Shown piece by piece: positions 3,490 through 16,850 of a DNA stretch of 64,000 bases. Under the pieces are notes generated by a model. It saw only the letters and a list, made by a program, of their open reading frames with translations, was not told the origin of the DNA and made no database searches. The number at the start of each line of letters is the position of its first letter. Within the stretch, counting starts at the first letter, position 1. Origin of the DNA: an uncultured Candidatus Saccharibacteria bacterium (GTDB lineage: Bacteria; Patescibacteriota; Minisyncoccia; Phycocordibacterales; DATDWN01); assembly GCA_964426735.1 (NCBI GenBank), contig CAYRRP010000001.1:75923-139922 (forward strand). Reading direction: 5' to 3'. Both the position numbers and the translations under genes were made by a program.

Positions 3490-4797
3490 ATGTCGTCATT
3501 AGGACCAACGATCATTTTCGATAAGTCAGTACTTCAATCACTTAGTGAAGATGAGTCTGTTTGGCTTGATGCTTTTTATCATTCAATAATTACACCCCTA
3601 TTTTATGTGGAAACTCTAGCCGATTTGGCTAAGAAATCTGAATTAAGACCTGCGGAAGATACTGTTCGCATGATTGCAAACAAAGTACCTGAAATGGGTT
3701 CTAGCCCAAATACTCATCACAGAGAACTGGTAGTCGGTAATCTGTTGGGATATGAAGTTAGTAATTCTAGAAGACCAATTCTTAGCGGAGGTAAGAGATA
3801 TACCATGAATAATAAGATCGGTGTCGTTTTTGATGAACCTCCAGAAACTAAAGCTTTTCAACGCTGGCAAAAACAAGAGTTTAATGAACTTGAAAGAGAG
3901 ATTGCTTCACTATGGAGGCAAGCTCTTGCAGAATTTGACTATGATTATTATTTTAATTTAATCAGAGAAATTACTGGTTCAACATTTACAAAACCAAAAA
4001 ATATTGAGGAAGCATACGATATGGCTTCAAAGATAGTTCGTGGAGAAGGTGACAGGTATAAATTATTGATAATGGCTAGAAATTTATTCAACATAAGCGA
4101 TGCAGGTTTCAGAGAAATATTGAAAGGATGGAATAAAAGTGGAATGCTTTCTATAAGCCAATTCGCTCCATATGCGAGTCATGTATTAAAAGTTGATATC
4201 TTTTTTATATTATGTACTAGTTCAAGTCTCATTTCTAGAGATAGAAAAAGTAACAGAGCAGATATGGCTTATTTGTATTATCTACCATTCGCCAATATTT
4301 TTACTTCAAGCGACAATTTACACAAAAGAGTCACACCGTTATTTTTAGAATCAGATCAAAGATTTATTTATGGTCCTGATTTAAAAAAGGATTTATCAGA
4401 ATTAGATGAGCACTTTTTTAAATTAAAAACCGATGATGAAAAAAGAGGTGGGGTTTTTGGTTTTGCCTGGTATCCTCCAGACAACAGTAGATTTTTAACT
4501 ACTCAGATGTGGGACAACATGAGACCTAACTGGAGATTGAGTGATAATCCAATGAGACAAGAAAAAATAAAGCCTAAAAATCAAAAGGTTCCAGATGGAT
4601 TAAAGGAGCACATTAAGAATGCTTATGAACAAATAAAGGCACAAAAAGGGACTCCAGTCTCTCCAGAGTTTGACCTTGAGGAAGCAAATGATGTAATTGT
4701 AAAAAGGACGGTTAGGGGGAGAAAAGGTAAATGGCAACTATTTTCAGATGAGATGATGAACTCTAAAGAGAGACTAATGGATGATGATGCAGATTAG
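3490..4797 (+). CDS. hypothetical protein (435 aa), possibly prophage accessory
   Basis: Long ORF with complex composition and no motif I can name. Sits directly next to the prophage module. Confidence 0.55.
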   Translation: MSSLGPTIIFDKSVLQSLSEDESVWLDAFYHSIITPLFYVETLADLAKKSELRPAEDTVRMIANKVPEMGSSPNTHHRELVVGNLLGYEVSNSRRPILSGGKRYTMNNKIGVVFDEPPETKAFQRWQKQEFNELEREIASLWRQALAEFDYDYYFNLIREITGSTFTKPKNIEEAYDMASKIVRGEGDRYKLLIMARNLFNISDAGFREILKGWNKSGMLSISQFAPYASHVLKVDIFFILCTSSSLISRDRKSNRADMAYLYYLPFANIFTSSDNLHKRVTPLFLESDQRFIYGPDLKKDLSELDEHFFKLKTDDEKRGGVFGFAWYPPDNSRFLTTQMWDNMRPNWRLSDNPMRQEKIKPKNQKVPDGLKEHIKNAYEQIKAQKGTPVSPEFDLEEANDVIVKRTVRGRKGKWQLFSDEMMNSKERLMDDDAD

Positions 4798-4841: not shown

Positions 4842-5786
4842 ATGAAAAAGTATGAAGATATATTTGTGTCCACACCTAAACCCTTTCAAGAAATTGGGAG
4901 TAATTTTGTTATTTCTGGATTAGTTCCAGTCTCTTGGTTAAAAGATGAGTTTGGAACTTTTGATAATCGGTTATTTTTAGATCTAATTGATATTGATGGT
5001 ATAGCTTTTAGTTGTGACACAATCTTTCTTCCGAGAATTAACTGGTTATGGAGATTATTAAGGAAAGTACCGTTTGATGCTAATGTCCAGTTTAACCAAT
5101 TTAACCTCGGCTTCTTAGAAAAATCTCAAGGAAGAGTTACTATTAAAATTTCAGCAAAGATGGAGGATGATAAATCTGTTTATATACCACTAATCATTAA
5201 GGAGTTAGAGCCAGAAAATGGAGTAGATCTTGAAGTACTAGAAAAACATAAAACTGTCGGTAGTAGGATAAAGCAGTATAAACAAGATTTAAAAGATTAT
5301 TACAGACAACTTGAAGAAATCAGAAAAAGACGTGAAGTTAAAGATAATATTTTTGATGATGCAGAATCAAATAAATTTTCATACTCAGGAGACCTAAATT
5401 TTGCTCATGAAATTTTGAACATTTTAAATCAATCAGAAGAAAATTTCGAAGAGTATCTTTATAGTGAGGAGGACAAAGAAGAACAAAAGTTAGAGGAGAA
5501 ATATAAAGATGCAATTGCGTGGAGGGGACCACTTTTTCGTGGACTGGTTGCAAAATTTGGTCCATTTGAAATGAGAGTCTATAGTAATGACCATGATAAA
5601 CATTTCCATGTAATACATAAAAGTAAGGGCGTGAACGCAAGATTTTCTTTTCCTCAAATTGAACTGATGAACTATAAAAAATCTAGAAATACCATTGGAA
5701 GTAAAGAATTAAAAAAAATTTGTGAGTTTTGTAAACGACCAGAAATTTTTGAAAGATTAGAAAAAGAATTCAGTAAGAGACAATAA
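4842..5786 (+). CDS. hypothetical protein with C-terminal DUF4160 domain
   Basis: 314 aa. C-terminal ...RVYSNDHDKHFHVIHKSKGVNARFSF... matches the DUF4160 signature (NDHxPPHFH). An acidic coiled-coil linker separates it from an N-terminal beta-rich domain. Confidence 0.5.
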   Translation: MKKYEDIFVSTPKPFQEIGSNFVISGLVPVSWLKDEFGTFDNRLFLDLIDIDGIAFSCDTIFLPRINWLWRLLRKVPFDANVQFNQFNLGFLEKSQGRVTIKISAKMEDDKSVYIPLIIKELEPENGVDLEVLEKHKTVGSRIKQYKQDLKDYYRQLEEIRKRREVKDNIFDDAESNKFSYSGDLNFAHEILNILNQSEENFEEYLYSEEDKEEQKLEEKYKDAIAWRGPLFRGLVAKFGPFEMRVYSNDHDKHFHVIHKSKGVNARFSFPQIELMNYKKSRNTIGSKELKKICEFCKRPEIFERLEKEFSKRQ

Positions 5787-5824
5787 CGAGATTTATAAGT
5801 AAAGTGAAGTGATGATTGTCTGTA

Positions 5825-6130
5825 CTACCAACTTCTATTCCACCATGATCCGAATTTTCCAAAAAGAAGTAGGAAGAATCCCAGTATACTAATAGAAAGA
5901 CCCATGCCAGTCTTTGGATCACTAAACCCTAAAACTGAAAGCCATGCTAGAAAGTAATATCCTCCACCTATGAACATGAGCCAACCAAGAGCTATAGTGA
6001 CTTTCCACTTTTTTGATACTGTCTGAGCGCCGTCTACTCTAACAGTTGTTTTTGAATTACCAATTCCAAACAATGATAAAATCCATCCAGAGATGACTGC
6101 TATCACAATTCCACTAAGTATCTGATTCAT
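5825..6130 (-). CDS. small membrane protein
   Basis: About 100 aa with 3 predicted TM helices. The ORF track starts at TTG (6139); an ATG at 6128-6130 is the likelier start. Confidence 0.45.
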   Translation of the reverse strand: MNQILSGIVIAVISGWILSLFGIGNSKTTVRVDGAQTVSKKWKVTIALGWLMFIGGGYYFLAWLSVLGFSDPKTGMGLSISILGFFLLLFGKFGSWWNRSW

Positions 6131-6395
6131 AATAAGCAAAGAATACCGAGAGGGTGGTAAAAAGTAAAGTGACAGTCAGAAGTCTCTTTCAAGTGTCACT
6201 TTTGTCACTATTTGAAAAAATCAGTGTGCTCAAGACCCGTCGATATGATATTGTTAAATTAGCTAAATCCACCAATCTGGGCTTGACCGACCACGGTTCT
6301 AGCTCGAGTCGGCCAGCCAAGTCGAGCACAGCACGAGTTGTGTTATTTGTCAACAGCACTCGAGCGCTCAAGTTGCGTCGTCAATTTAATTTTTA

Positions 6396-7187
6396 TTGAA
6401 CTTTATGGAATCACTAAATAAAGCAATTGAGAACCTAAAGCTAAATAACGATGTAGACGCAGTTTTTCTCACAGGTTCGAACGCTATAAACCAATCAAAA
6501 TCATACAGTGATATTGATTTGGTGGTTATTCTGAAAGAAAACAAAAATAGTCTATATTCTCTATACAAATGGATTGATGGTATTTTTGCTGAAATTTTCT
6601 TTTTTGATTTGTCAGATATGCAAAGAATTGCTTCAGCAACAAACATTGATTCTGATAATTTCGATGCAATATTGTTTGATTGGATAAAAAAATCAAATAT
6701 ATATTTTGATAAATCTGGATTGGTTACAAATTTGAAATTGAAAGCTTTAGAAGTTGATACTTCACATGTTTCTGAAAAATCCAAAAAAGGTTATTGGCAA
6801 AGAATAAATCACAATTATATTGCTGATAAAAGATATTTTGATTCTGGAGATCAAATTTACCATGAAGCTCTGGAAATGAAATTATTCTATAGCATGGAAC
6901 AAGTTACCTGTGCTTATTTTACTCTACGAGATATACCGTGGAGAGGAGAGAAAAACGCTATTTTGTATATGAAAGAAAATGCAAAAGATTTTTACGAATT
7001 GTTTCAAAGCTATACTTCTGCAGTAACTCTACATGAAAGATTTAAGGCATATTCAGAAATGGTTGATTTGGTTTTTACCGATGAATATAAAAAATGGACA
7101 AAGGAGAATGAAATAATTCTTAAAAAAGATTTTTCTGTTGCAGAAAAGGATGATCTTGTTTCTATTTATGTAAAATCATTATTTTAA
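6396..7187 (+). CDS. nucleotidyltransferase-fold protein (aminoglycoside/minimal nucleotidyltransferase-like)
   Basis: 263 aa. N-terminal NTase motif GSNAINQSKSYSDIDLVVIL (hG[GS]...DhD), C-terminal helical domain. Confidence 0.6.
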   Translation: MNFMESLNKAIENLKLNNDVDAVFLTGSNAINQSKSYSDIDLVVILKENKNSLYSLYKWIDGIFAEIFFFDLSDMQRIASATNIDSDNFDAILFDWIKKSNIYFDKSGLVTNLKLKALEVDTSHVSEKSKKGYWQRINHNYIADKRYFDSGDQIYHEALEMKLFYSMEQVTCAYFTLRDIPWRGEKNAILYMKENAKDFYELFQSYTSAVTLHERFKAYSEMVDLVFTDEYKKWTKENEIILKKDFSVAEKDDLVSIYVKSLF

Positions 7188-7195
7188 AAAATAAC

Positions 7196-7678
7196 ATGCA
7201 AATAAAATCACAATTCACTGATAATGGGAATATAGCACAAGTGGTATATGAGGATTGTGACTCTTTTAACCATCTTTTATCAAAAAAAGTGACACAAGTA
7301 TACGCTATCTGTTTCCTAGATGACAAAATGCTAGTTGTTCACAATAAACATGCATGGGGTTTAGTTGGTGGTGGTCTTGAACCAAACGAAACATATGAAG
7401 AATGTTTGAAAAGAGAAATAAAAGAAGAATCAAATATGAGAGTTCTTTCTTTTGCACCTGTAGGTGCCCAAGAAGTTCAATTTGATGGCAAAATAATCTA
7501 CCAACTTCGTTATGCTTGCATCATTCATCCATATGGTGATTTTGTCTCTGACCCAGACGGAGATGTATCTGAAATTAAACTAATTGATTCAAAAGATTAT
7601 AAAGAATATTTTGACTGGGGTGAAATTGGAGAAAGAATCATAGAAAGAGCACTCGAACTTAAGAATAAATTAGCTTAA
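7196..7678 (+). CDS. NUDIX hydrolase (paralog 1)
   Basis: Nudix box GGGLEPNETYEECLKREIKEESN. Shares the C-terminal block PYGDFVSDPDGDxSEIKLID with the ORFs at 7686 and 11897. Confidence 0.8.
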   Translation: MQIKSQFTDNGNIAQVVYEDCDSFNHLLSKKVTQVYAICFLDDKMLVVHNKHAWGLVGGGLEPNETYEECLKREIKEESNMRVLSFAPVGAQEVQFDGKIIYQLRYACIIHPYGDFVSDPDGDVSEIKLIDSKDYKEYFDWGEIGERIIERALELKNKLA

Positions 7679-7685
7679 CAAAATC

Positions 7686-8180
7686 ATGGAAATAAAATCA
7701 CAATTTAAATCACGTAATGGAGAAATGGTTGATTACGTGTTCAGAGAAGGATTTGATCCGATGGGGGGATTAGATGGAAAAGTTCTGCAGGCTGTCCATG
7801 GTTTTTGTTTTTATGGTGACAAATTGGTAGTAGTATACGCAAATGATAAGGGGTATTGGACATTTCCAGGCGGTAGTATAGAACCCGGAGAAACATGGCA
7901 AGAAGCTACTACCCGAGAGATAAAAGAAGAATCAAATATGAAAGTGTTACATCAGGAATTGATTGGATATATCGATGTATATGAAAAAGACCGCACTATT
8001 CGACAAACCAGATCGTTTTGTATAGTTGAACCATACGGTGATTTCGTTTCTGATCCGGATGGAGATATTTCAGAAATAAAGTTGATTGACCCAAAAGACT
8101 ACGGACAGTATGTAAAATGGGGAGAAATTGGTGATCACATTGTGAAGCGAGCGATGGAAATGTTTGGAAAATATAAATAA
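7686..8180 (+). CDS. NUDIX hydrolase (paralog 2)
   Basis: Nudix box PGGSIEPGETWQEATTREIKEESN. About 50% identical to the neighbouring paralogs. Confidence 0.8.
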   Translation: MEIKSQFKSRNGEMVDYVFREGFDPMGGLDGKVLQAVHGFCFYGDKLVVVYANDKGYWTFPGGSIEPGETWQEATTREIKEESNMKVLHQELIGYIDVYEKDRTIRQTRSFCIVEPYGDFVSDPDGDISEIKLIDPKDYGQYVKWGEIGDHIVKRAMEMFGKYK

Positions 8181-8373
8181 AATTATGAAAGAAATTGAGA
8201 ATAATCTTATTTCAGCCCGTCAAAATATTTTGGATAAATTATTGAATTTCTTTCAAAATAAGGCTACTGAATGTCATGTTTTCGGATCCATAGCTAGAGG
8301 TGATACTGATGCATATAGCGATATGGATATTTTTTATGCTTCTTGGTTTTACATTCTCATTCACAACTCATAA
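8164..8373 (+). pseudogene. truncated minimal nucleotidyltransferase fragment
   Basis: 69 aa. Contains the NTase motif GSIARGDTDAYSDMDI but ends about 40-60 aa short of a complete MNT fold. Overlaps the upstream gene end. Confidence 0.4.
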
Positions 8374-8518
8374 AATCACTCATCCTATACACAGGATTAT
8401 TGCTGGTATAGCGGTCATTTTGTTTTTTACTTTTGTGTGGGTGATGCTGGCGACAGGATAATTGGACAGTCCATTTCTGACACCACCGTCAGGTGGTGTA
8501 TAGTAAAGTAGTCTACAT

Positions 8519-9118
8519 ATGAAATCAAAAATTTTAGAACTTGCATCATTGATTCTTGACTTTGGAAAAGTAGATCGAAAGACATCTCACCAAGATGGTG
8601 TTTATCCTGAATCTGATACGGACCATACTGTCATGCTTGGTATATTGGCACCATCTATTGCCGAGCGTTTATATCCAGATCTTGATCGAGGGCTTTTGGT
8701 GCAGTTTGCACTGATTCATGACCTGGTTGAAGTGCATACGGGAGACACACCAACACTTATCGGTGTAAGTGATGCATTTTTTGCAGATAAAGAAGCTCGA
8801 GAATATGACTCACTAAAGCGTATTGAAGAAATGTTTGGACCTGTATTTCCGTGGGTACATACTACGATAGAGCATTATGAACGCTTGGATACAAAAGAAG
8901 CTCGGTTTATAAAAACACTTGATAAAATTTTGCCGAAGCTTACTGTGATATTAAACCAGGGTGCTGGGCTCAAACGTCACGGACATATTACTAAAGATGA
9001 AGTAAAAAAGACTTTTGTTATCCAGAAGAAGAAGTTGGAGGGTATTGCTCATGATATGCCAGAACTACTTGAGCTCTGGCAACACTTTATGGATAAAGAG
9101 CTCGAATTTTTGGAATGA
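8519..9118 (+). CDS. HD-domain 5'-deoxynucleotidase (YfbR-like)
   Basis: H...HD...D metal-binding pattern (ESDTDHT ... LIHDLVEVHTGD), as in the YfbR/HD_3 family. Confidence 0.7.
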   Translation: MKSKILELASLILDFGKVDRKTSHQDGVYPESDTDHTVMLGILAPSIAERLYPDLDRGLLVQFALIHDLVEVHTGDTPTLIGVSDAFFADKEAREYDSLKRIEEMFGPVFPWVHTTIEHYERLDTKEARFIKTLDKILPKLTVILNQGAGLKRHGHITKDEVKKTFVIQKKKLEGIAHDMPELLELWQHFMDKELEFLE

Positions 9119-9152
9119 TACAAGTAATATATTTCTGGTATACTTTTCTCAT

Positions 9153-9587
9153 ATGCAAAAAATTAAAATCGAAACAATAATCAATGCTCCAGTAGCAAAA
9201 GTTTGGGAACACTGGAATAGTCCAGAAAGCATTAAAGGGTGGGCTTTTGCCAGTGATACGTGGGAATGTCCGTATGCGGAAAATGATGTAAAAGTGGGAG
9301 GTAGATTTTTGACTCGAATGTCCGCAAAAGACGGGAGCGCTTCTTTTGATTTTACCGGTACGTACACAGAAGTTGTTCCGTTTGAAAAAATCACATACAT
9401 AATGGATAAAGCTGATACTGAAGCAGAGCATAGAGAATGCGATATTATTTTTACTGATCTTGGAGACGGTACTACAAAAATAGAAGAAGAATTTTCTCCC
9501 GAAGAAGTAAATAGTGAAGATATACAAAGAGCCGGATGGTCTGCAATACTTGAAAACTTTAAAAAGTTTGTAGAAAACAAAGCATAA
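9153..9587 (+). CDS. SRPBCC (AHSA1/YndB-like) domain protein
   Basis: About 144 aa with a conserved VWEHWNSPE...W start typical of the Aha1/SRPBCC fold. Start taken at the ATG at 9153; the ORF track begins earlier. Confidence 0.5.
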   Translation: MQKIKIETIINAPVAKVWEHWNSPESIKGWAFASDTWECPYAENDVKVGGRFLTRMSAKDGSASFDFTGTYTEVVPFEKITYIMDKADTEAEHRECDIIFTDLGDGTTKIEEEFSPEEVNSEDIQRAGWSAILENFKKFVENKA

Positions 9588-9615
9588 CGTATTTGATAAT
9601 ATAGTTTGCTATACT

Positions 9616-10152
9616 ATGAGTATGGAAGAATTGCCTCAAAATAAAATAGAATTAGCAAGAGAGTTTGCTGACAGAAAATTTAGAGAAACAGGAATAGGAA
9701 ATCATTTTTTGGAAGTATGTCATATTTTACAAAATGATTTTGGAATTGATGATATAGATATCTTAACTGCAGGTCTCCTTCATGATACGTTAGAGGATAC
9801 GAGCGCTACATACGAAGAAATAGAAAGTATTTTTGGGAAAAATGTAGCTGATATGGTAGAAGAAGTAAGTCATCCAAAAAACTACACCGCTGAACAAAAA
9901 GTAGAATATTACGAAAAACTCAAACATATTTCATGGGGTGGAAAAATGATTAAGTTGGCAGATTTTAAATCCCACCTTAAGAGATTTATCGGAGCATTTA
10001 CAGGAGAGAATAACTTAAAGAAATTTACATATAATGAATATTGTCTGTATATTCGTGGTTTTCTAGAGAGTTGTGATGATTCTTCTGCTAAAGAAGAAGT
10101 AACTAATTTAAATGACAAGTTAGAAAGTTATATTATGGGGATAAACAAATAA
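9616..10152 (+). CDS. HD-domain phosphohydrolase, SpoT/Mesh1-like small (p)ppGpp hydrolase-like
   Basis: HFLEVCH ... LLHDTLEDT ... D motif set of the Rel/SpoT hydrolase (HD_4) domain. 178 aa. The promoter-like ATAGTTTGCTATACT directly abuts the ATG. Confidence 0.6.
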   Translation: MSMEELPQNKIELAREFADRKFRETGIGNHFLEVCHILQNDFGIDDIDILTAGLLHDTLEDTSATYEEIESIFGKNVADMVEEVSHPKNYTAEQKVEYYEKLKHISWGGKMIKLADFKSHLKRFIGAFTGENNLKKFTYNEYCLYIRGFLESCDDSSAKEEVTNLNDKLESYIMGINK

Positions 10153-10183
10153 AATGATCAAGTATTTTTCATATAAATAATTT

Positions 10184-10696
10184 ATGAAAATTCTTAGAAC
10201 CATCAGAGATGTAGATATAGGAAGTGGGCTTCAAGAGCCAGAGACTTTTCGTGAACGAAAAGCAAGTCGAGGAGTTATTTTTGATAAAGAAAATAAGGTT
10301 GCTCTCGTGTATTCTGCAAAGAATCAATATCATAAATTGCCAGGAGGGGGAGTAGGTGAGGGAGAAGATTTGGAAGTGGCTTTGCAACGAGAATTGATTG
10401 AAGAAGTTGGATGTAAAGTCGAGAGTATTGAGGAACTTGGAATTGTAGAGGAATATAGAAACAAAATTGGTTTGCATCAGATTTCATATGGTTATATAGC
10501 TCGGGTAGTCGAAAAAGGTACAGCTCAGTTAGAAGCAAATGAGGTTGAGGAAAAATATATCACAAAATGGTTTGATTTAGATGTTGCAATTGAAACTTTG
10601 GAAGCTGAATCAATCACGGATCATTATGATGGTAAGTTTATGTGGATGCGTGACATAACTTTTCTTAAGGAGGCAAGACAAACAAAGTGCAACTAA
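10184..10696 (+). CDS. NUDIX hydrolase
   Basis: Nudix box PGGGVGEGEDLEVALQRELIEEVG. Confidence 0.75.
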   Translation: MKILRTIRDVDIGSGLQEPETFRERKASRGVIFDKENKVALVYSAKNQYHKLPGGGVGEGEDLEVALQRELIEEVGCKVESIEELGIVEEYRNKIGLHQISYGYIARVVEKGTAQLEANEVEEKYITKWFDLDVAIETLEAESITDHYDGKFMWMRDITFLKEARQTKCN

Positions 10697-10714
10697 TTCA
10701 GGTATAATTTAAAT

Positions 10715-11239
10715 ATGGAAGAATTTATATCACCAGAACAAATTAAATTTCCTGAAATAGCTCAAGAAATTAATGAAATGGCTGAGGTTGACCAGAATAT
10801 GCGACAAAGAGAAATCGATGAGCCTGATTTTTGGGATGATTCAGTTGATAAGAAGAATACAGAGAGAATGAAAGAAATAGTTGGGGAAATAGGTTGGCCT
10901 TCAGTTTCAAGAGTTGGAAAGGAGGCTTCAATTGATGCGTGGTTATTGGTTCAGCATGCGGATCATGATGTGGAGTTTCAATCGTATTGTCTGTCTCTCA
11001 TAAATGAATTACCTACGGGTGAAGTCCGTGCTGAAGATATTGCACTTCTTACAGATAGGGTGCGAGTTAATTCAGGTCAACCGCAGGTTTACGGGACTCA
11101 ATTTAGACAAGTGGATGGAAAACATATTCCAAAGGATATTGAGGATATTGAAAATGTAAATGAAAGACGAAAAGCGGTAGGGTTAGATTCTTTAGAAGAG
11201 AATATCGAAAGAATGTATAAAAAGTATCCTTTAAAATAG
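10715..11239 (+). CDS. hypothetical protein (174 aa) inside the nucleotide-hydrolase island
   Basis: ORF with balanced composition, 18 nt after the upstream gene. No assignable motif. Confidence 0.5.
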   Translation: MEEFISPEQIKFPEIAQEINEMAEVDQNMRQREIDEPDFWDDSVDKKNTERMKEIVGEIGWPSVSRVGKEASIDAWLLVQHADHDVEFQSYCLSLINELPTGEVRAEDIALLTDRVRVNSGQPQVYGTQFRQVDGKHIPKDIEDIENVNERRKAVGLDSLEENIERMYKKYPLK

Positions 11240-11330
11240 GATTAAAGAAGTCAGGAGCTATTGTCACGGAGCAGAAAGTGGATTGGTTGTTATGTGCACA
11301 ACCTCCTTTATTAATTGGTATACTTACACT

Positions 11331-11891
11331 ATGAAAATATTTTTAGTGAGACACGGGGAAACCGAAGAAAACGTTGCAGGTCTTTTGATGGGGCAACATC
11401 AAGGAGTGTTGACTGAAAAAGGGAAAACTCAAGCAAGTGAGACTGCTGGTATGTTGAAGGATTATACATTTGCACACATCTATTCTTCCGATTTGAATCG
11501 GTGCGTAGATACTGCTGAAATTATTAAAGAGTTTCATCCTGATACACCTCTGACATTTACTAAAGATCTGAGGGAACGACATCTTGGGATTTTCCAGGGA
11601 CAACCTCACATATCTGTAGACTGGGAAGCGTTACCGGGTACTTGGGATGATAAGAAACCGGAAAATGGTGAGTCTGTGGCTGAGTTGAAAAAGCGAGCGC
11701 TAGATTTTATTGAATACCTCTACACAATTCATCCGAGCGAAAGTATATTGCTTATTTCTCATAATGGATGGATAAAACAAATTATTTCACATTTTTCTGG
11801 TGTGCCATCTAAGGAAGTGGGTAAGGTAGAAAATGCTCAGGTTATTGAAGTTGAAGTGGGTGAAAATCTAGAAGGGAAAATTTTGAACTAG
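11331..11891 (+). CDS. histidine phosphatase family protein (phosphoglycerate mutase-like)
   Basis: MKIFLVRHGETEEN (RHG catalytic motif) at the ATG at 11331. 186 aa. Confidence 0.75.
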   Translation: MKIFLVRHGETEENVAGLLMGQHQGVLTEKGKTQASETAGMLKDYTFAHIYSSDLNRCVDTAEIIKEFHPDTPLTFTKDLRERHLGIFQGQPHISVDWEALPGTWDDKKPENGESVAELKKRALDFIEYLYTIHPSESILLISHNGWIKQIISHFSGVPSKEVGKVENAQVIEVEVGENLEGKILN

Positions 11892-11896
11892 TATAT

Positions 11897-12385
11897 ATGC
11901 AAATCGTATCAACTATCACTAATAAACAAGGAGAGACTTTTAAATCTATCTATCATGAAGGTGAAAATCCTAATGAAAATTTAGATGGAGTTATTTTGCC
12001 TGGCTCAGGCGGACATTGTTTTTGTGGTGACAAGTTGGTAATTGTAAAATCCGGTAATGATTGGGGTTTTCCAGGGGGTGGAATTGAAAAAGGAGAGACA
12101 TGGCAGGATGCTGTCGCACGGGAGGTAAAAGAAGAAGCAAATATGAAAGTGGTACACCACGAGCTTATTGGCTACCAAGACTTTTTTATGAAAAAACACA
12201 CATTGCGCCATGTGCACTCTCTCTGTATTGTCGAGCCGTATGGAGACTTTGAATCTGATCCAGATAACGATATTACGGAGATAAAACTCATTGATCCGAA
12301 AGATTTTAAAGAATACATCAACTGGGGTGAAGTTGGTGATTATCTAATGAAACAAGCTTTGGAAATGAAAGATTTGATAAAATGA
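11897..12385 (+). CDS. NUDIX hydrolase (paralog 3)
   Basis: Nudix box PGGGIEKGETWQDAVAREVKEEAN. C-terminal block PYGDFESDPDNDITEIKLIDPKDF is shared with the 7196 and 7686 paralogs. Confidence 0.8.
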   Translation: MQIVSTITNKQGETFKSIYHEGENPNENLDGVILPGSGGHCFCGDKLVIVKSGNDWGFPGGGIEKGETWQDAVAREVKEEANMKVVHHELIGYQDFFMKKHTLRHVHSLCIVEPYGDFESDPDNDITEIKLIDPKDFKEYINWGEVGDYLMKQALEMKDLIK

Positions 12386-12512: not shown

Positions 12513-12857
12513 ATGTTATATTACGAAAGTGCAGTACAATGTCCGCAAGAAGGAAGCTTGGGTGAATCTCTAGTTCAGGTTGTCTCAGAAGAAGACGGAG
12601 TCTATCTTATTGTTCTTCCGGACGGAGTCACTCCTGGGAGACGAGAAGCTGCAGAGAAGTTTGCAGAGGCAGTTGCGAACCTTCGTGCAAGAGCTCCTGG
12701 TTGTTCATTTTCTTTCACTCCGTTTGATTATGAGTCATCTAAGGAATCTAGCGGCGTCACATCGTGGCTAGCAGTTCGAGGACGTGTTTTGCCACGACGA
12801 TTGAGTTTGATGGATAGGATGCTGAGAGTACTTGCTCTACCGTCAGTGAGATATTAA
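12513..12857 (+). CDS. hypothetical small protein (GC-elevated)
   Basis: 114 aa. RBS GAGGTG 6 nt upstream. Own rho-independent terminator. Locally elevated GC. Confidence 0.4.
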   Translation: MLYYESAVQCPQEGSLGESLVQVVSEEDGVYLIVLPDGVTPGRREAAEKFAEAVANLRARAPGCSFSFTPFDYESSKESSGVTSWLAVRGRVLPRRLSLMDRMLRVLALPSVRY

Positions 12858-12862
12858 CTTAA

Positions 12863-12905
12863 CCGCCCGCGAGAGCCAAACGCTTTCGCGGGCGGCTTTC
12901 ATTTA
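12863..12905 (+). terminator. rho-independent terminator
   Basis: CCGCCCGCGAGAGCCAAACGCTTTCGCGGGCGG followed by a T-run. Confidence 0.75.
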
Positions 12906-12989
12906 TACGTAAAATATAACTTTGTTATAGGTTGCGATTGTAATTTTAAATAAAATACTGTAGAAATATACCTAGAAAGGGAAACATCC

Positions 12990-13301
12990 ATGGGTAGTAA
13001 TTATTATGCTAAAAGATTCGGCAAAGTGGTGTCTGCCACTGAAGATCAGGTGACTGAGATACTGCAGGTCAACACGAAAGCAGCTGCAGCAAAAGAGTAT
13101 GTTCTCCAGTGCATGCCGGAGGTCAGAATCAACAGAAATGAAGAAGTTTATTGCCCTTACGCAGCATGTGGAGCCCAACAATCTTCGCTCACGATCGGAA
13201 TTCATACGTGTCGAAACAGCAAGTGTGGCAGAATGTTTAGGGTGCCGGACACTGCCACCAATCGGCGGATCAGAAAAGAACTCCAACACGATAGGTTTTG
13301 A
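12990..13301 (+). CDS. small cysteine-rich (zinc-ribbon-like) hypothetical protein
   Basis: 103 aa. C-x4-C ... C-x4-C arrangement (CPYAACGAQ ... CRNSKCGRMF). RBS AAAGGGAAA. Own terminator at 13334-13367. GC-elevated. Confidence 0.4.
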   Translation: MGSNYYAKRFGKVVSATEDQVTEILQVNTKAAAAKEYVLQCMPEVRINRNEEVYCPYAACGAQQSSLTIGIHTCRNSKCGRMFRVPDTATNRRIRKELQHDRF

Positions 13302-13333
13302 CATCCTTTATTGTTGGCTCAAAGGTGGCTTTA

Positions 13334-13367
13334 ATCGGAGTTGTTTTGCAACAACTCCGATTTTTTG
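13334..13367 (+). terminator. rho-independent terminator
   Basis: ATCGGAGTTGTTTTGCAACAACTCCGAT followed by TTTTTTG. Confidence 0.75.
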
Positions 13368-13455: not shown

Positions 13456-14055
13456 ATGAAAAAACAAGTTGTTGTTATCCATGGTGGAGATACATTTGAA
13501 AATTATGAGGCGTATGTCGATTTTCTAAAAAATTTTGAAATTGATCTTGAGAGATATAAGACAAGTAAAAATGATTGGAAGCCGTGGCTCAGGCAAAAAC
13601 TCGGAGAGGAGTATGAGGTTATATTGCCTACAATGCCAAACAAGACAAATGCACAGTTTGGAGAGTGGAAACTCTGGTTTGAGAAAATAATTCCACTGTT
13701 AAATGATCAGGTTGTATTGGTAGGGCATTCTCTCGGAGCGTCTTTTTTGGTTAAATATTTATCGGAAAATATATTTCCAAAAAAGATACAAGGTGTATTT
13801 CTCGTAAGCGGGGTTTTTGATACAGATTCGGAAGGGTATTTGTTGTGGAGTTTTGCATTACCAGAAAAGCTCGACTTGCAGACAGAACATATATACCTCT
13901 ATCACAGCAAAGATGATCCTGTTGTACCATTTTCTGCTCTTGGGGATTTTATGAATGTGTTACCTGGTGCTCATGCGAGAGTGTTTGAAGACAGGAGACA
14001 TATAAACCAAGAAGAATTTCCAGAACTCGCCGAAGATATTTTAAGTGTGGAATAA
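13456..14055 (+). CDS. alpha/beta serine hydrolase (RBBP9/YdeN family)
   Basis: VVVIHGGDT ... LVGHSLGAS (GxSxG nucleophile elbow) ... D/H pattern. TATACT-N6-ATG leaderless promoter arrangement. Confidence 0.7.
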   Translation: MKKQVVVIHGGDTFENYEAYVDFLKNFEIDLERYKTSKNDWKPWLRQKLGEEYEVILPTMPNKTNAQFGEWKLWFEKIIPLLNDQVVLVGHSLGASFLVKYLSENIFPKKIQGVFLVSGVFDTDSEGYLLWSFALPEKLDLQTEHIYLYHSKDDPVVPFSALGDFMNVLPGAHARVFEDRRHINQEEFPELAEDILSVE

Positions 14056-14069
14056 CATATATGTAATAT

Positions 14070-14330
14070 ATGAAAGATTTCAAACCAAAACATACTCCTT
14101 TTGTTGTGTTGGGTATACTGTCTCTCGTATGCTCGCGTATATTATTTTCATTGTTTAATGACCCTGAGGGTGCAAATCTACTTGTGGTTGTAGTAATGGC
14201 ATTGATTATGTATTTCTTGTCGCTGACTCCGTATATACTTGTGGCTTCACTCAATAGTCAGAGTAAATTTTTAGGTGGGATTTTGATTCAAATAGTATCA
14301 CTTGTCACTTTCTGGGTGTATTTAAAATAG
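14070..14330 (+). CDS. small membrane protein
   Basis: 86 aa with 2-3 TM helices. Confidence 0.4.
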   Translation: MKDFKPKHTPFVVLGILSLVCSRILFSLFNDPEGANLLVVVVMALIMYFLSLTPYILVASLNSQSKFLGGILIQIVSLVTFWVYLK

Positions 14331-14402
14331 GTTACGTATAGTATATAGAAGTGAGATAAGGTATTCCTATAAAATTAATATAACTTTGGTATACTTAAAT
14401 TC

Positions 14403-15275
14403 ATGTTCGTTATTCCTAAGAAAAAAAGTATACAAGTTGCTAGCATACTTTCTGTGGTAGTGTTTTTTTACCTGGTTATCGTAGTAGATGTATTTCATAT
14501 TATCGGTACAGCTGAGCAGTCCCAAGTGGGTACAGTGGCACTTTCTACTACACAACAAAGCGTGCCTCCAAGTGAACAAGATTTGCTTGGTAAGGCAGAA
14601 TTGAGTTATGCAGGAGGGACGATAGGGAGAAATAAAAATATTGAACTAGGTGCATCTTTGATTGACGGTACAGTTGTTTTTCCTGGAGAGGAATTTTCGT
14701 TTATTAAAGCGTTGGGAGAGGTTACTGAAGAAGGTGGTTTTAGTAATGAAAAAGTCTTTCTCAATGGTGAAGTAACAAAGGGGATTGGTGGCGGACTTTG
14801 TCAGGTATCAACAACTCTTTTCAGAGGCATACTTGAAGCTGGTTTTCCTGTAACCGAGCGGCACAATCATAGCTATACTGTTTCTCGATACGATGCTGGT
14901 CTCGATGCAACATATTCAGATCCTGGTGTTGATTTGAAATTTTTAAACGATATGAAGTATCCAGTGGTAGTGCGTGCAAAAACAGAAGAACAAAAAGTGG
15001 TTATTGAACTTCGTGGTATTTCTGACGGAAGAGTTGCGAGTACAACAGAACCAGAAATTATACATATCGTTGACGTACCACCTCCACGTATTGTTGCTAC
15101 CACCACCGTCTTTAAAAAAGGACAAGAATGTGTAAATAGTCCACAGATTGGCTATACCGCAAAGGTAGAATATAGTATTTTTTATCCAGACAATACAGTA
15201 AAAGAGCAAATCTTTTCTTCTACATATAAACCATTGCAAAGAATATGTTACGTGATGGCGACAAGTACGCAATAA
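14403..15275 (+). CDS. VanW family protein
   Basis: N-terminal TM helix and the VanW signature GGGLCQVSTTLF. Confidence 0.75.
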   Translation: MFVIPKKKSIQVASILSVVVFFYLVIVVDVFHIIGTAEQSQVGTVALSTTQQSVPPSEQDLLGKAELSYAGGTIGRNKNIELGASLIDGTVVFPGEEFSFIKALGEVTEEGGFSNEKVFLNGEVTKGIGGGLCQVSTTLFRGILEAGFPVTERHNHSYTVSRYDAGLDATYSDPGVDLKFLNDMKYPVVVRAKTEEQKVVIELRGISDGRVASTTEPEIIHIVDVPPPRIVATTTVFKKGQECVNSPQIGYTAKVEYSIFYPDNTVKEQIFSSTYKPLQRICYVMATSTQ

Positions 15276-15288
15276 TATAGACAATACT

Positions 15289-16119
15289 ATGATTAAAAAA
15301 ATACTACGAGTGGTGATTGTTGTTTGTGTAGGGGTTGTTGTGTGGTGTGTATTTTTGAAACCAGTGCCACTTACAGGGGATTGGCAAGAGCATCTCAAAA
15401 TAGCTTCAACTGCAGAATTTAATGGTGATACTGTTACCGTTAAGAATGTAAGAAATTTTAGGTATTACCCTCAGGAGAAAGATATGCATCCTGGATATTA
15501 TGATCGTACCTACAATCTCAATGAAGTAACACAAGTGTGGTATGTAGCAGAACCATTTAATGAAAATGAATCAGCAGCACATACATTTGTTTCTTTTGAA
15601 TTTAAAAATGGCGATTTTCTTTCTATTAGTATAGAGGCACGAAAAACAAAAGAACAAACATACAGTATTTGGAAAGGTTTTTTGCGTACGTATCCGCTTA
15701 TCTATATTGCTGCCGATGAACGAGACGTGATACTTCTTCGTGCAAATCTTCGAAAAGACAAGGTGTATGTATATCCAGTAAAATTTGAAAAACCAGAAAA
15801 TAGACGACTCTTGTTGGTAGATATGCTCACACGAATGAATGAACTTACTACAACAAAGCCTGCGTGGTATAACACATTATTTGCAAATTGTACGTCGAGT
15901 ATTGCGGGGCATGTAAATAAGCTCTCGCCAGGGCGCATTTCTATTTTCTCATGGGAACTCTGGCTCACCGCTTCTGCCGATGAGCTTGCACTTGAGCATG
16001 GACTACTTGATACTGATTTGTCTATTGAAAAAGCTCGTGAAAAATATTCAATCAATGAAACGTCTCTCAGGGTGGGGGATGTGCCAGAGTATTCCACAGA
16101 AATTCGAAAATTTAAATGA
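15289..16119 (+). CDS. DUF4105-like membrane-anchored protein
   Basis: N-terminal TM helix, about 270 aa, conserved NCTS motif region reminiscent of DUF4105 (Lnb N-terminal domain). Confidence 0.45.
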   Translation: MIKKILRVVIVVCVGVVVWCVFLKPVPLTGDWQEHLKIASTAEFNGDTVTVKNVRNFRYYPQEKDMHPGYYDRTYNLNEVTQVWYVAEPFNENESAAHTFVSFEFKNGDFLSISIEARKTKEQTYSIWKGFLRTYPLIYIAADERDVILLRANLRKDKVYVYPVKFEKPENRRLLLVDMLTRMNELTTTKPAWYNTLFANCTSSIAGHVNKLSPGRISIFSWELWLTASADELALEHGLLDTDLSIEKAREKYSINETSLRVGDVPEYSTEIRKFK

Positions 16120-16226
16120 TATACTTATTGTATATAAATAATTGTAATTTTATGGCAAAAGGAAACACACATACAAAAGAAAAAAAGAAACCAAAAAAGC
16201 CAAAGGCTAAATAGTCTGAAGCGACA

Positions 16227-16262
16227 AAAAACCTTCTCTGTTTAAAGAAAAGGTTTTTTGTT
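16227..16262 (+). terminator. rho-independent terminator
   Basis: AAAAACCTTCTCTGTTTAAAGAAAAGGTTTTTTG. Confidence 0.6.
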
Positions 16263-16273
16263 AGAATAGTTGC

Positions 16274-16840
16274 ATGTTTGATTTTATTGATCCGAAGACT
16301 ATATACACAATTATTCATGTGTTTGGGGCGATTTTAGGAGCCGGAGGGGCATTTGTGAGTGATGGTATGTTTTTTGACACTATCAAAGATGGAAGAGTGA
16401 CAAAACGTGAGCTTGATTTTATGAAGCTCGGAGGGAGGTTTGTGTGGACGGGGCTTTTTGTACTCCTTATATCAGGTATATTTCTTGTATCTACCGACCC
16501 TGCGCGTTATCTTGTATCAGATAAATTTATTGCTAAAGTTGTTATTGTTGCCGTGATTGTATTAAATGGAATTATATTTCATACTATTCATATTCCTCAT
16601 ATCAGAAATCATCTCGGTATTAAACTTAAAGAGTCAGAGACTTTTCTAAAAAAATCTTCATTTATCATGGCGAGTGGTGCACTCTCACTCGTCTCATGGG
16701 TGGTGACAGTAATCCTCGGAAGTCTTCGTCATGTTCCATACAATTACGCTGAAATATTGAGTGTGTATGTGGTGTGCGTGACAGTCGCTATTGTGGGGGC
16801 ATTGACTATGAAAAGAGTGGTGTTGCATATTAAAAATTAA
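16274..16840 (+). CDS. polytopic membrane protein
   Basis: 188 aa with about 5 TM helices. Confidence 0.5.
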   Translation: MFDFIDPKTIYTIIHVFGAILGAGGAFVSDGMFFDTIKDGRVTKRELDFMKLGGRFVWTGLFVLLISGIFLVSTDPARYLVSDKFIAKVVIVAVIVLNGIIFHTIHIPHIRNHLGIKLKESETFLKKSSFIMASGALSLVSWVVTVILGSLRHVPYNYAEILSVYVVCVTVAIVGALTMKRVVLHIKN

Positions 16841-16850
16841 AAAATTATGT

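What the first reader, a model, noticed from the sequence alone, without database searches (positions are those of the whole stretch)
6396..12385. Six-kb same-strand island of nucleotide-hydrolysing enzymes, including three recently duplicated NUDIX paralogs
Eleven consecutive plus-strand genes with minimal spacing encode a nucleotidyltransferase, two NUDIX paralogs, a truncated nucleotidyltransferase fragment, a YfbR-like HD 5'-deoxynucleotidase, an SRPBCC protein, a SpoT-like HD (p)ppGpp-hydrolase-type enzyme, a fourth NUDIX, an unknown 174-aa protein, a histidine phosphatase and a third copy of the NUDIX paralog. The three paralogs (7196, 7686, 11897) share about 50% identity and the block PYGDF(V/E)SDPD(G/N)D(I/V)(S/T)EIKLID. 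A fifth NUDIX lies at 16851. This concentration sits directly beside a prophage remnant. It suggests a dedicated module for nucleotide salvage or pool sanitation, or for degrading nucleotide second messengers such as alarmones, cyclic oligonucleotides or NAD-derived signals, possibly as anti-defence or signalling control. The biological role is inference.
Basis: partly seen in the sequence, partly recalled or inferred. Interest (0 to 1): 0.5.

Follow-up and report, generated by a model that had tools for sequence, protein, structure and literature searches.

The report
Patchwork island of nucleotide-hydrolase genes
In the genome of an ultra-small Parcubacteria (CPR) bacterium, a strain-specific stretch next to a dead prophage has collected ten small enzymes that cut phosphorylated nucleotides; the genes are real and thematically linked, but they are old, separately promoted genes assembled piecemeal, not a recently duplicated, co-inherited system.

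Summary
There are ten intact plus-strand genes and one 62-aa nucleotidyltransferase stump at 6396-12385. The block is 100% identical in three independent assemblies.

"Recently duplicated" is wrong. NUDIX A, B and C share 39-55% identity with each other. Each has orthologs of 63-87% identity in other Patescibacteria, so the duplications predate those lineages.

The 11-gene set is not a conserved module.
- A close relative shares the prophage remnant (86% nt) but carries different cargo after it.
- Around 43 other loci with this NUDIX family, HD_3, HD_4, SRPBCC, DUF6624 and the NTase are absent within 10 kb.
- Several genes have their own extended -10 box 6-8 nt before the ATG.

The theme is still not pure chance.
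- NUDIX genes cluster: 12/150 near versus 2/150 far ORFs, p=0.011.
- The A-B tandem and the His-phosphatase/NUDIX pairing recur.
- This NUDIX family is found fused to HD_4, to DUF6624 and to a second NUDIX elsewhere.

Best reading: a flexible-genome patch drawn from a loosely linked guild of nucleotide phosphohydrolases, used for salvage, sanitation or alarmone/NADP(H) turnover. I found no support for anti-defence or phage cargo. Interest is modest.

The parts
49..1584 (-). Terminase large subunit of the prophage remnant
   Evidence: phrog_38 E 3e-82. Conserved at 86% nt in L016/L017.
1565..1966 (-). Terminase small subunit-like gene
   Evidence: phrog_309/4044.
1953..3233 (-). ParB_N + N6/N4 DNA methyltransferase (phage-type)
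   Evidence: phrog_498 E 1e-83. PADLOC MTase_II.
3490..4797 (+). 435-aa protein of unknown function; the last gene shared with the close relative L016
   Evidence: No Pfam, PHROG, PADLOC or PDB hit. 97% aa identity in L016. Nucleotide homology with L016 ends at 4793.
4842..6139 (.). Insertion relative to L016: a 314-aa unknown gene (+, 4842-5786) and a 104-aa membrane ORF (-, 5825-6139)
   Evidence: Absent between the 436-aa gene and the conserved block in L016.
6214..6318 (+). Conserved ~105-nt non-coding block at the head of the cargo array
   Evidence: 91% identical in L016, where different genes follow it. Further copies in L023, L024/L026, two in L021, and a weak one in L107. No Rfam hit and no covariation.
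6396..7187 (+). 263-aa (260 aa from the ATG at 6405) pol-beta-type nucleotidyltransferase with a helical C-terminal half
   Evidence: PF01909 29.5 bits, PF18765 27.7 bits. Weak LnuH/ANT(4')/MntA similarity, all below cut-offs. A 45% identical ortholog sits in the L107 cargo array.
7196..7678 (+). NUDIX paralog A; starts 8 nt after the NTase
   Evidence: PF00293. Own ortholog clade. Tandem with B is conserved in L003, L008-10, L013-15 and L030.
7686..8180 (+). NUDIX paralog B; starts 7 nt after A
   Evidence: PF00293. 1211 homologs. Orthologs are 84-87% identical.
8185..8373 (+). 62-aa stump of an MNT-type nucleotidyltransferase (pseudogene remnant)
   Evidence: Ends right after GSIARGDTDAYSDMDI and is followed by 145 nt of non-coding DNA. 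Unrelated to the 263-aa NTase.
8519..9118 (+). HD_3 phosphohydrolase (HDDC2/YfbR-class 5'-nucleotidase-like)
   Evidence: PF13023 74.8 bits. PDB 3kh1 E 1e-10, HDDC2 E 4e-6. A 93% aa ortholog lies in a different array in L018.
9153..9587 (+). SRPBCC/AHSA1 small-ligand-binding protein, with its own TGGTATACT box 8 nt before the ATG
   Evidence: PF08327 74 bits. Promoter box.
9616..10152 (+). HD_4 small alarmone hydrolase (MESH1-like), with its own TGCTATACT box
   Evidence: PF13328 40.2 bits. Human MESH1 E 2e-16 with H, HD, ED and KLAD aligned. 226 homologs; those carrying a source name are Patescibacteria. Promoter box.
10184..10696 (+). Fourth NUDIX, a different subfamily, with a canonical Nudix box
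   Evidence: PF00293 57.5 bits. 21-27% identity to A, B and C.
10715..11239 (+). DUF6624 protein (all-alpha, function unknown), with its own GGTATAAT box 6 nt before the ATG
   Evidence: PF20329 86.8 bits. 1238 homologs. AF2 model pLDDT 90.9 with no informative PDB fold match. Found fused to an A/B/C-type NUDIX in P0442.
11331..11891 (+). Histidine phosphatase (PhoE/CobC-like), with its own TGGTATACT box 6 nt before the ATG
   Evidence: PF00300 144 bits. PDB PhoE 1ebb E 3e-18. All NCBIfam equivalogs are below cut-off.
11897..12385 (+). NUDIX paralog C; starts 5 nt after the histidine phosphatase
   Evidence: PF00293 57.4 bits. An 83-85% identical ortholog sits alone among hypothetical genes in L021.
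12513..13362 (+). Two small higher-GC ORFs (114 aa; 103 aa with a zinc-ribbon motif), each followed by a strong terminator-like hairpin (12863-12895, 13333-13362)
   Evidence: The 103-aa ORF is conserved in L018 (63% aa).
13456..17544 (+). Rest of the flexible region: Ser_hydrolase, 86-aa ORF, VanW, Lnb_N, 188-aa membrane protein, fifth NUDIX (16851-17255), DUF1905
   Evidence: Pfam; gene list. Core genes start at about 17.7 kb.

Best explanation
The region is a strain-specific patch of flexible genome in a Parcubacteria/Paceibacteria (CPR) chromosome. It lies just downstream of a decayed phage-like element.

It was assembled gene by gene, or pair by pair, from families that are native to and widespread in Patescibacteria. 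The units appear to be NTase-NudA-NudB | HD_3 | SRPBCC | HD_4(-Nud4) | DUF6624 | HisPhos-NudC. Most units carry their own extended -10 box a few nucleotides before the start codon, so the block is not one operon and not a fixed system.

The members nevertheless belong to a loosely linked guild. Elsewhere, the Patescibacteria-specific A/B/C NUDIX family sits next to other NUDIX genes and next to histidine phosphatases. It is also fused to MESH1-type HD_4 hydrolases and to DUF6624.

Inferred mechanism (not shown): the enzymes act separately or in short relays on phosphorylated nucleotides.
- HD_4 removes 3'-pyrophosphate or 2'-phosphate from (p)ppGpp, (p)ppApp or NADPH.
- NUDIX enzymes cleave 5' pyrophosphate linkages.
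- The histidine phosphatase removes remaining monoesters.
- HD_3 removes the 5'-phosphate.

The products would feed nucleotide salvage and pool sanitation in an organism that cannot make nucleotides.
For: Shown by tool results:
1. Identity of the organism and reality of the block.
2. Ancient paralogy: each of A, B and C has its own ortholog clade.
3. A close relative, L016/L017, is 86% identical over window 1-4793 and carries the same 105-nt block. Different cargo follows it there: MgtE x2, EVE, OmdA and others.
4. L018 keeps a collinear scaffold NudA..HD_3..p103..VanW with different fillers.
5. L107 has ParB-MTase plus a 438-aa gene, then an array with HD_4 (77% identity) and the NTase (45% identity) among Dabb, SnoaL and GrpB.
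6. In 43 independent family loci, HD_3, HD_4, SRPBCC, DUF6624 and NTase orthologs are absent within +-10 kb.
7. The truncated MNT stump shows gene decay inside the block.
8. TG[GC]TATA[CA]T or GGTATAAT boxes end 6-8 nt before the ATG of SRPBCC, HD_4, DUF6624 and HisPhos, and also of SerHyd, VanW and p435. NudA, NudB and NudC have none and start 5-8 nt after the preceding gene. Orthologs elsewhere carry similar boxes.
9. Guild links: NUDIX is enriched near family members, 12/150 versus 2/150, Fisher p=0.011. HisPhos is adjacent in L044 and L059. Fusions are P0216 and P0505 (NUDIX + HD_4), P0442 (DUF6624 + NUDIX), and P0122, P0415 and others (double NUDIX).
10. Purifying selection is suggested: HD_3 is 93% aa versus 87% nt, and p435 is 97% aa versus 86% nt.

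From the literature:
- SAHs are promiscuous on (pp)pGpp, pppApp and NADPH (PMC9765508).
- Nudix enzymes degrade (p)ppGpp (PMC10112252).
- CPR bacteria often lack nucleotide synthesis (PMC7304191).
Against: - No substrate is known for any protein here. All NCBIfam equivalog scores are far below cut-off.
- Promoter boxes are consensus matches in AT-rich DNA. The general promoter scan was not above shuffles (56 versus 53). No transcript data exist.
- Fusions are few: 3-4 among a few hundred relatives. Some could be gene-calling or frameshift artefacts in short metagenome contigs; P0216 lies on a 1.3-kb contig.
- The counts for His_Phos, AAA_18, CYTH and APH near the NUDIX family are only 2 each.
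- Eight of ten genes sharing a nucleotide theme is more coherent than the other cargo arrays seen (L016, L107). Selection for a joint function in this population therefore cannot be excluded.
- tblastn at E<1e-6 with at least 50% coverage would miss very divergent partners.
Confidence: 0.6

Rival explanations
1. Dedicated co-regulated module. The eleven genes form one functional system, an operon for degrading a nucleotide second messenger or for a defined salvage pathway, selected and inherited together.
For: - Same strand, 5-91-nt gaps, and no strong terminator until 12863.
- Eight of ten genes are nucleotide or phosphoester enzymes.
- Fusions link NUDIX with HD_4 and DUF6624.
- The block is identical in three samples.
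Against: - The set is not found outside one population.
- Partners are absent around 43 other family loci.
- A close relative has other cargo at the same junction.
- Internal promoter-like boxes precede at least four genes.
- The block contains a decayed gene stump.
- SRPBCC has no nucleotide link.
Confidence: 0.12
2. Prophage cargo or anti-defence. The island is the moron/accessory arm of the adjacent phage-like element and serves to destroy host immune nucleotide signals (cyclic oligonucleotides, NAD-derived signals).
For: - It lies next to TerL, TerS, ParB-MTase and a serine recombinase.
- Variable cargo follows a ParB-MTase plus large unknown gene in three genomes.
- PHROG families exist for NUDIX, HD_4-like and His_Phos proteins.
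- Weak PADLOC PDC-S07/S09 matches.
Against: - The element has no capsid, tail or lysis genes in view. It is flanked by a host M23 peptidase.
- No att-like direct repeats enclose the island.
- No phage DNA match. Phage SAHs are only 33-36% identical.
- No full-length member of the A/B/C NUDIX family occurs in IMG/VR.
- Orthologs sit between core genes such as YceG, YchF and LeuRS.
- None of the known anti-CBASS, anti-Thoeris or anti-Pycsar families matched (own knowledge of those families; they were not searched for by name).
Confidence: 0.06
3. Pure accretion with no functional relation. The flexible region collects any small dispensable genes, and the nucleotide theme arises only because NUDIX and HD families are abundant in these genomes and one pair was duplicated long ago.
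For: - Other cargo arrays at equivalent places are heterogeneous: MgtE, EVE, OmdA, Dabb, SnoaL, GrpB.
- Most family loci lack island partners.
- Slightly lower GC than the core, 35.0% versus 39.6%.
Against: - NUDIX genes are significantly enriched next to family members (p=0.011).
- The fusion partners of the family are precisely HD_4, DUF6624 and NUDIX.
- HisPhos-NUDIX adjacency recurs in distant genomes.
Confidence: 0.2

Closest known systems
Flexible genomic islands / integration hot spots beside decayed prophages
   Same: - Strain-level presence or absence with a conserved flank.
- Lower GC than the core genes.
- Gene stumps.
- Neighbouring recombinase, terminase and methyltransferase.
- Different cargo at the same junction in relatives.
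   Different: - No att repeats, tRNA target or integron-type sites were found.
- The cargo families are native to the phylum rather than foreign.
- A conserved ~105-nt block of unknown role sits at the junction.
MESH1 / small alarmone hydrolases (SAH) of the RelA-SpoT homolog superfamily
   Same: - The HD_4 protein is a 178-aa single-domain protein.
- It aligns to human MESH1 (E 2e-16) with H, HD, ED and KLAD conserved.
- SAHs hydrolyse (pp)pGpp, pppApp and NADPH (PMC9765508).
   Different: - No alarmone synthetase is seen in the 64-kb window, and activity is untested.
- Small RSHs are described as generally single-domain (PMC3153485). Relatives of this one occur fused to NUDIX domains (P0215, P0216, P0505).
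Nudix alarmone hydrolases (T. thermophilus Ndx8, E. coli MutT/NudG, B. subtilis NahA)
   Same: - NUDIX fold with an intact catalytic REUXEE motif.
- Physical linkage with an SAH-type hydrolase suggests shared substrates.
- Nudix enzymes are known to degrade (p)ppGpp (PMC10112252).
   Different: - The A/B/C family is a Patescibacteria-restricted clade with an N for G in the Nudix box and a private PYGDFxSDPDxD..EIKLID block.
- It scores far below the cut-offs of MutT, RppH/YtkD, NudI and NudC models.
- No sequence test against NahA or Ndx8 was possible.
Mycobacterial MutT1 (Nudix domain + histidine-phosphatase domain in one protein)
   Same: A histidine phosphatase sits directly beside a NUDIX gene (5-nt gap here; also L044 and L059). 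This suggests a two-step diphosphate then monophosphate hydrolysis. The MutT1 architecture is cited from my own knowledge.
   Different: - These are separate genes in the opposite order.
- The NCBIfam MutT1 model scores 18-22 bits against a cut-off of 475.
- The substrate is unknown.
'Housecleaning' NUDIX expansions in Bacillus and Deinococcus genomes
   Same: Many small NUDIX paralogs of unknown substrate, often next to GNAT, APH-type kinase and HD genes. The comparison with Bacillus and Deinococcus is from my own knowledge.
   Different: Here the host has a reduced genome, so retaining five NUDIX genes in 10 kb is proportionally larger.

Membership tests
NUDIX superfamily (PF00293) | Nudix box GX5EX7REUXEEXGU and a Pfam score above the gathering cut-off | tested here: met
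   All five proteins score 43-57 bits against a cut-off of 21.1. Boxes were found at 7370, 7872, 10346, 12077 and 16956. A, B and C have N in place of the penultimate G. The fifth NUDIX has X8 instead of X7.
Named NUDIX equivalogs (MutT, RppH/YtkD, NudI, NudC NADH pyrophosphatase, NudE, MutT1) | NCBIfam equivalog score at or above the curated cut-off | tested here: not met
   Best scores are 35-39 bits against cut-offs of 95-475. The closest PDB match is B. subtilis RppH at only E 1e-8.
Small alarmone hydrolase (MESH1-type, HD_4) | Single HD_4 domain of about 180 aa with conserved H...HD...ED...D hydrolase residues | tested here: met
   PF13328 scores 40.2 against a cut-off of 27.2. 178 aa. 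The alignment to MESH1 3nr1/5vxa shows nH, HD, ED and KLAD conserved.
Small alarmone hydrolase (MESH1-type, HD_4) | Hydrolysis of (p)ppGpp, (p)ppApp or NADPH | not testable with these tools
   Requires an enzyme assay.
YfbR-like 5'-deoxynucleotidase (PF12917) | Pfam score above the gathering cut-off | tested here: not met
   23.8 bits against a cut-off of 25.9. HD_3 (PF13023) is met at 74.8 bits.
Conserved operon / gene cluster | The same gene set is co-localised in several distinct lineages | tested here: not met
   The full set occurs only in L001, L002 and L020, which are one population. Partners are absent in 43 family loci. Only the A-B tandem, HisPhos-NUDIX and NudA..HD_3 recur.
Recent tandem duplication | Paralogs are each other's closest relatives and more similar to each other than to orthologs elsewhere | tested here: not met
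   Paralogs are 39-55% identical; orthologs are 63-87%. The NJ tree gives three separate clades.
Prophage-borne cargo (moron) | Lies inside an element bounded by att repeats, with relatives carried on phage genomes | tested here: not met
   No flanking repeats. No phage DNA match. No full-length family member in IMG/VR.
Known anti-phage defence systems (PADLOC) | Match to a defined multi-gene system model | tested here: not met
   Only single-domain candidate families matched: PDC-S07 (NUDIX) and PDC-S09 (MNT-like), at E 1e-6 to 1e-12.
Integron cassette array | attC sites between cassettes and a tyrosine IntI integrase with attI | tested here: not met
   Gaps of 5-31 nt leave no room for attC. 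The nearby recombinase is a serine recombinase. The 105-nt block occurs once, not between genes.
MNT-type nucleotidyltransferase (type VII TA antitoxin), for the 8185-8373 stump | Complete pol-beta NTase fold of about 100-130 aa, with a HEPN partner | tested here: not met
   62 aa ending just after the DxD motif. No HEPN ORF follows.

The most novel reading that the evidence does not exclude
The Patescibacteria-specific A/B/C NUDIX family, the MESH1-type HD_4 hydrolase, DUF6624 and a histidine phosphatase form an undescribed, modular route in CPR bacteria. The route would dismantle 2'/3'-phosphorylated nucleotides, meaning alarmones such as (p)ppGpp or (p)ppApp, or NADP(H), taken from or imposed by their hosts. 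DUF6624 would be a new catalytic or specificity component. The evidence not excluding this is the fusions NUDIX+HD_4 and DUF6624+NUDIX together with the recurrent adjacencies.
Probability: 0.2. Interest if true: 0.65.

Novelty: new variant of a known kind. Interest (0 to 1): 0.33.

Why it matters
CPR/Patescibacteria cannot make nucleotides and live off other cells, so how they process scavenged or signalling nucleotides is an open question.

This locus is not a new system in itself. It does bring together a phylum-restricted NUDIX family (over 1,200 relatives, substrate unknown), an orphan MESH1-type hydrolase and an uncharacterised DUF6624 family (over 1,200 relatives). These families are also fused to each other elsewhere.

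That gives concrete candidates for enzyme assays and a first functional lead for DUF6624. The locus also documents how flexible regions in these tiny genomes are built from self-promoted single-gene units.

Tried and rejected
- **Integron-like cassette array:** rejected. Gaps are too short, there is no attC, and the recombinase is a serine recombinase.
- **att sites around the island or prophage:** none found.
- **105-nt block as a known RNA, a structured RNA or a small ORF:** no Rfam hit at E<=1, fold z-score -0.84, no covariation in four sequences, and stop codons in two of the copies in the only plausible frame.
- **Cross-phylum HGT origin:** not supported. The NUDIX family is restricted to Patescibacteria. 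For HD_4 and DUF6624, every homolog that carries a source name is Patescibacteria.
- **NTase structure:** the single-sequence model is unusable (pLDDT 37). A two-sequence profile against PDB gives only weak KNTase/MNT N-terminal matches and spurious PPR hits.
- **Phage link:** blastn of the island against phages gave no match. p435 is absent from IMG/VR.
- **Literature on Nudix or ppGpp in CPR:** nothing directly relevant.
- **General sigma-70 promoter scan:** not above shuffles. Only the specific extended -10 box next to start codons was informative.

Full report
**Observation**

- 6396-7187: pol-beta nucleotidyltransferase (NTase).
- 7196-7678 and 7686-8180: NUDIX A and B.
- 8185-8373: a short NTP_transf_2 stump.
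- 8519-9118: HD_3.
- 9153-9587: AHSA1/SRPBCC.
- 9616-10152: HD_4.
- 10184-10696: a fourth NUDIX.
- 10715-11239: DUF6624.
- 11331-11891: His_Phos_1.
- 11897-12385: NUDIX C.
- 16851-17255: a fifth NUDIX.

Gaps are 5-91 nt, except for the 338 nt that holds the stump. The shared PYGDFxSDPDxD..EIKLID block is real. All five Nudix boxes of the window lie between 7.3 and 17 kb.

The block is 100% identical in three independent Logan assemblies. Its proteins are also recorded from an NCBI contig of 233.7 kb. Homolog names place the organism in Parcubacteria/Paceibacteria of the Candidate Phyla Radiation.

To the left lie TerL, TerS and a ParB-N6/N4 methyltransferase. A serine recombinase sits just outside the window. 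From about 17.7 kb onward the window holds core genes: Mur ligases, MurA/B, Ddl, UvrABC, TGT, XseA, G6PD and YceG.

**The duplications are old**

Pairwise identities are A-B 48%, B-C 55% and A-C 39%. Orthologs in other genomes are 63-70% (A), 84-87% (B) and 83-85% (C) identical. A neighbour-joining tree gives three separate clades, each containing sequences from several genomes.

The A-B tandem itself is conserved at about 76% nucleotide identity in L008-10 and L013-15. It also occurs as NUDIX-APH-NUDIX in L003 and as a tandem in L030.

NUDIX B alone has 1211 detectable relatives. A scan of 185,579 species genomes finds full-length members only in Patescibacteria. 'Recently duplicated' is therefore refuted.

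**The eleven-gene set is not conserved**

- **L016/L017**, a close relative, is 86% identical to the window from 1 to 4793. This covers the terminase, the MTase and the 435-aa gene, which is 97% identical in protein. It then carries a 91% identical ~105-nt non-coding block, followed by entirely different cargo: two unknown genes, two MgtE, a 3-dmu-9_3-mt protein, EVE, OmdA and others. In the window an extra 1.4-kb insertion (4794-6192) precedes that block.
- **L018**, from another assembly, keeps a collinear scaffold NudA..HD_3 (93% aa)..p103..VanW, with different genes in between.
- **L107** has a ParB-MTase and a 438-aa unknown gene. An array follows that contains HD_4 (77% identity) and the NTase (45% identity) among Dabb, DUF6498, SnoaL and GrpB genes.
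- **L021** has the NUDIX C ortholog alone among hypothetical genes.
- **L005/6 and L011/12** have the NUDIX B ortholog between YceG and YchF-LeuRS.

I ran tblastn of every island protein against 43 independent Patescibacteria loci centred on a family member (+-10 kb). There was no HD_3, HD_4, SRPBCC, DUF6624 or NTase ortholog. There were two histidine phosphatases.

The 62-aa stump ends just after the GS...DxD motif of an MNT-type enzyme. It is unrelated to the 263-aa NTase, which is a sign of gene decay.

**Transcription units (inferred from sequence only)**

An extended -10-like box, TG[GC]TATA[CA]T or GGTATAAT, ends 6-8 nt before the ATG of several genes. These are SRPBCC, HD_4 (second ATG at 9622), DUF6624 and HisPhos, and also SerHyd, VanW and p435. 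Three further genes elsewhere in the window have it too.

NudA, NudB and NudC lack such a box and start 5-8 nt after the preceding gene. Orthologs in other genomes carry similar boxes.

This suggests leaderless-type single-gene or two-gene units: NTase-NudA-NudB | HD_3 | SRPBCC | HD_4(-Nud4) | DUF6624 | HisPhos-NudC. A generic promoter scan was not above shuffles, so this needs TSS data. Strong terminator-like hairpins appear only downstream, at 12863 and 13333.

**What the proteins are**

- No NCBIfam equivalog reaches its cut-off for any of them.
- HD_4 aligns to human MESH1 (E 2e-16) with the H, HD, ED and KLAD residues in place. It is a small alarmone hydrolase by sequence.
- HD_3 is closest to 3kh1 and HDDC2.
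- The histidine phosphatase is closest to PhoE and CobC.
- The A/B/C NUDIX proteins are closest to B. subtilis RppH, at only E 1e-8.
- DUF6624 gives a confident all-alpha model (pLDDT 90.9) but no informative fold match. Its invariant QHADHD, DR and QxYGTQF motifs suggest a conserved site.
- The NTase could not be modelled.
- The NUDIX family is restricted to Patescibacteria. For HD_4 and DUF6624, every homolog that carries a source name is Patescibacteria. Foreign origin is therefore not indicated.
- Island GC is slightly lower than the core, 35.0% versus 39.6%.

**The theme is not pure chance**

- I compared ORFs within 2 kb of a family member in the 43 loci with ORFs 5-9.5 kb away. The near set holds 12 NUDIX domains in 150 ORFs, and the far set holds 2 in 150 (Fisher p=0.011).
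- His_Phos_1, APH, CYTH, GrpB, AAA_18 and GNAT each occur twice in the near set. None appears in the far set's top list.
- A histidine phosphatase sits directly beside the NUDIX in L044, in the array HisPhos-NUDIX-160aa-AAA_18-CYTH. It also does so in L059, as it does here with a 5-nt gap.
- The family is found fused to the same partners as in the island:
  - P0216 is A/B/C NUDIX + HD_4. P0215 is another NUDIX + HD_4.
  - P0505 is HD_4 + A/B/C NUDIX (profile E 1.4e-26).
  - P0442 is DUF6624 (E 1.4e-27) + A/B/C NUDIX (E 4.3e-50).
  - Several proteins are double NUDIX.
- These fusions are few. Some lie on short contigs, so they are leads rather than proof.

**Mechanism**

Shown:
- The domain identities and catalytic motifs.
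- The mosaic evolutionary history.
- The pairwise links listed above.

Inferred:
- The enzymes act separately or in short relays on phosphorylated nucleotides.
- SAHs hydrolyse (pp)pGpp, pppApp and NADPH (PMC9765508).
- Nudix enzymes such as Ndx8, MutT, NudG and NahA cleave (p)ppGpp (PMC10112252).
- A histidine phosphatase and an HD_3 nucleotidase could finish the job down to the nucleoside.
- CPR bacteria often lack nucleotide synthesis (PMC7304191), which makes salvage or sanitation a plausible selective reason.

**Phage cargo and anti-defence**

There is no support for either.
- No phage DNA match.
- Only distant phage SAHs, at 33-36% identity.
- No full-length family member in IMG/VR.
- Only generic PADLOC candidate-family matches.
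- No att repeats.

**Comparison and verdict**

The locus is a flexible-genome patch beside a decayed phage-like element. It is built from native, separately promoted genes of a loosely linked nucleotide-phosphohydrolase guild.

As an island it is ordinary. Three points are mildly new:
- The phylum-restricted NUDIX family.
- Its fusions with a MESH1-type hydrolase and with DUF6624. Small RSHs are described as generally single-domain (PMC3153485).
- The ~105-nt conserved block at the head of variable arrays.

Interest is 0.33. Confidence in the mosaic/guild reading is 0.6.

Noticed in passing
window 6214-6318 (+); L016 11350-11454; L023 1873-1977; L024 1194-1296 (-); L026 4-101; L021 578-678 and 2514-2629; L107 9717-9804 (weak): A conserved ~105-nt non-coding block lies 30-76 nt upstream of unrelated plus-strand genes, often at the start of variable gene arrays. 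Two diverged copies flank the NUDIX C ortholog block in L021. There is no Rfam match, no significant fold and no covariation, and stop codons rule out coding in two of the copies.
   Followed up: partly
window 3476, 9137, 9608, 10701, 11317, 13442, 14388, 35014, 38703, 52549 (+): Extended -10-like boxes (TGnTATAcT/TATAAT) end 6-8 nt before start codons, with no Shine-Dalgarno sequence. This suggests many leaderless transcripts in this genome. Seven of the ten sites lie in the 3.4-14.4 kb flexible region.
   Followed up: partly
window 1953-3233 (-) and 3490-4797 (+); L016 8463-11311; L107 6567-9683: A ParB_N-N6/N4 methyltransferase is divergently paired with a ~435-aa protein that has no Pfam, PHROG, PADLOC, PDB or IMG/VR match. 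The pair is conserved (97% aa) in L016. An analogous but non-homologous pair precedes a cargo array in L107.
   Followed up: partly
L011 12954-15914 (also L012): A leucyl-tRNA synthetase of 986 aa carries a ~170-aa insertion (residues ~389-556) with an intact Nudix box, GGVDSGEDIKTGILREVEEESG. The 811-aa ortholog in L005 lacks it.
   Followed up: partly
window 24369-25889 (-): A MurA-like EPSP_synthase-family protein has an N-terminal XRE-type HTH_3 domain (506 aa), sitting among the Mur ligase genes.
   Followed up: no
window 40417-41463 (-): A fusion of a LOG/Lysine_decarbox (SLOG) domain with a pterin-4a-carbinolamine dehydratase domain, 348 aa.
   Followed up: no
window 12513-12857 and 12990-13301 (+): Two small ORFs have clearly higher GC (46-47%) than their surroundings. 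Each is followed by a strong hairpin terminator. The 103-aa ORF has a CxxC...CxxC zinc-ribbon pattern and a 63% identical ortholog in L018.
   Followed up: no
proteins P0122/P0124 (302-305 aa), P0415, P0428, P0468, P0535: Double-NUDIX proteins. A close relative of NUDIX A (about 90% identity) is fused to a second, Ap4A-hydrolase-like NUDIX domain. Several other two-NUDIX architectures occur in the family.
   Followed up: partly
L005 13424-14763: A bAvd gene and short RVT_1 fragments, resembling a remnant of a diversity-generating retroelement, lie 3 kb downstream of the NUDIX B ortholog.
   Followed up: no
window 9601-9630 and 13435-13464: A 30-nt direct repeat (80% identity, with 15 nt identical: ATAGTTTGCTATACT) comprises the promoter-like boxes of HD_4 and of the Ser_hydrolase. 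It brackets the 3.8-kb segment that L018 lacks. Such shared boxes could serve as microhomology for cassette gain or loss, which is speculation.
   Followed up: no
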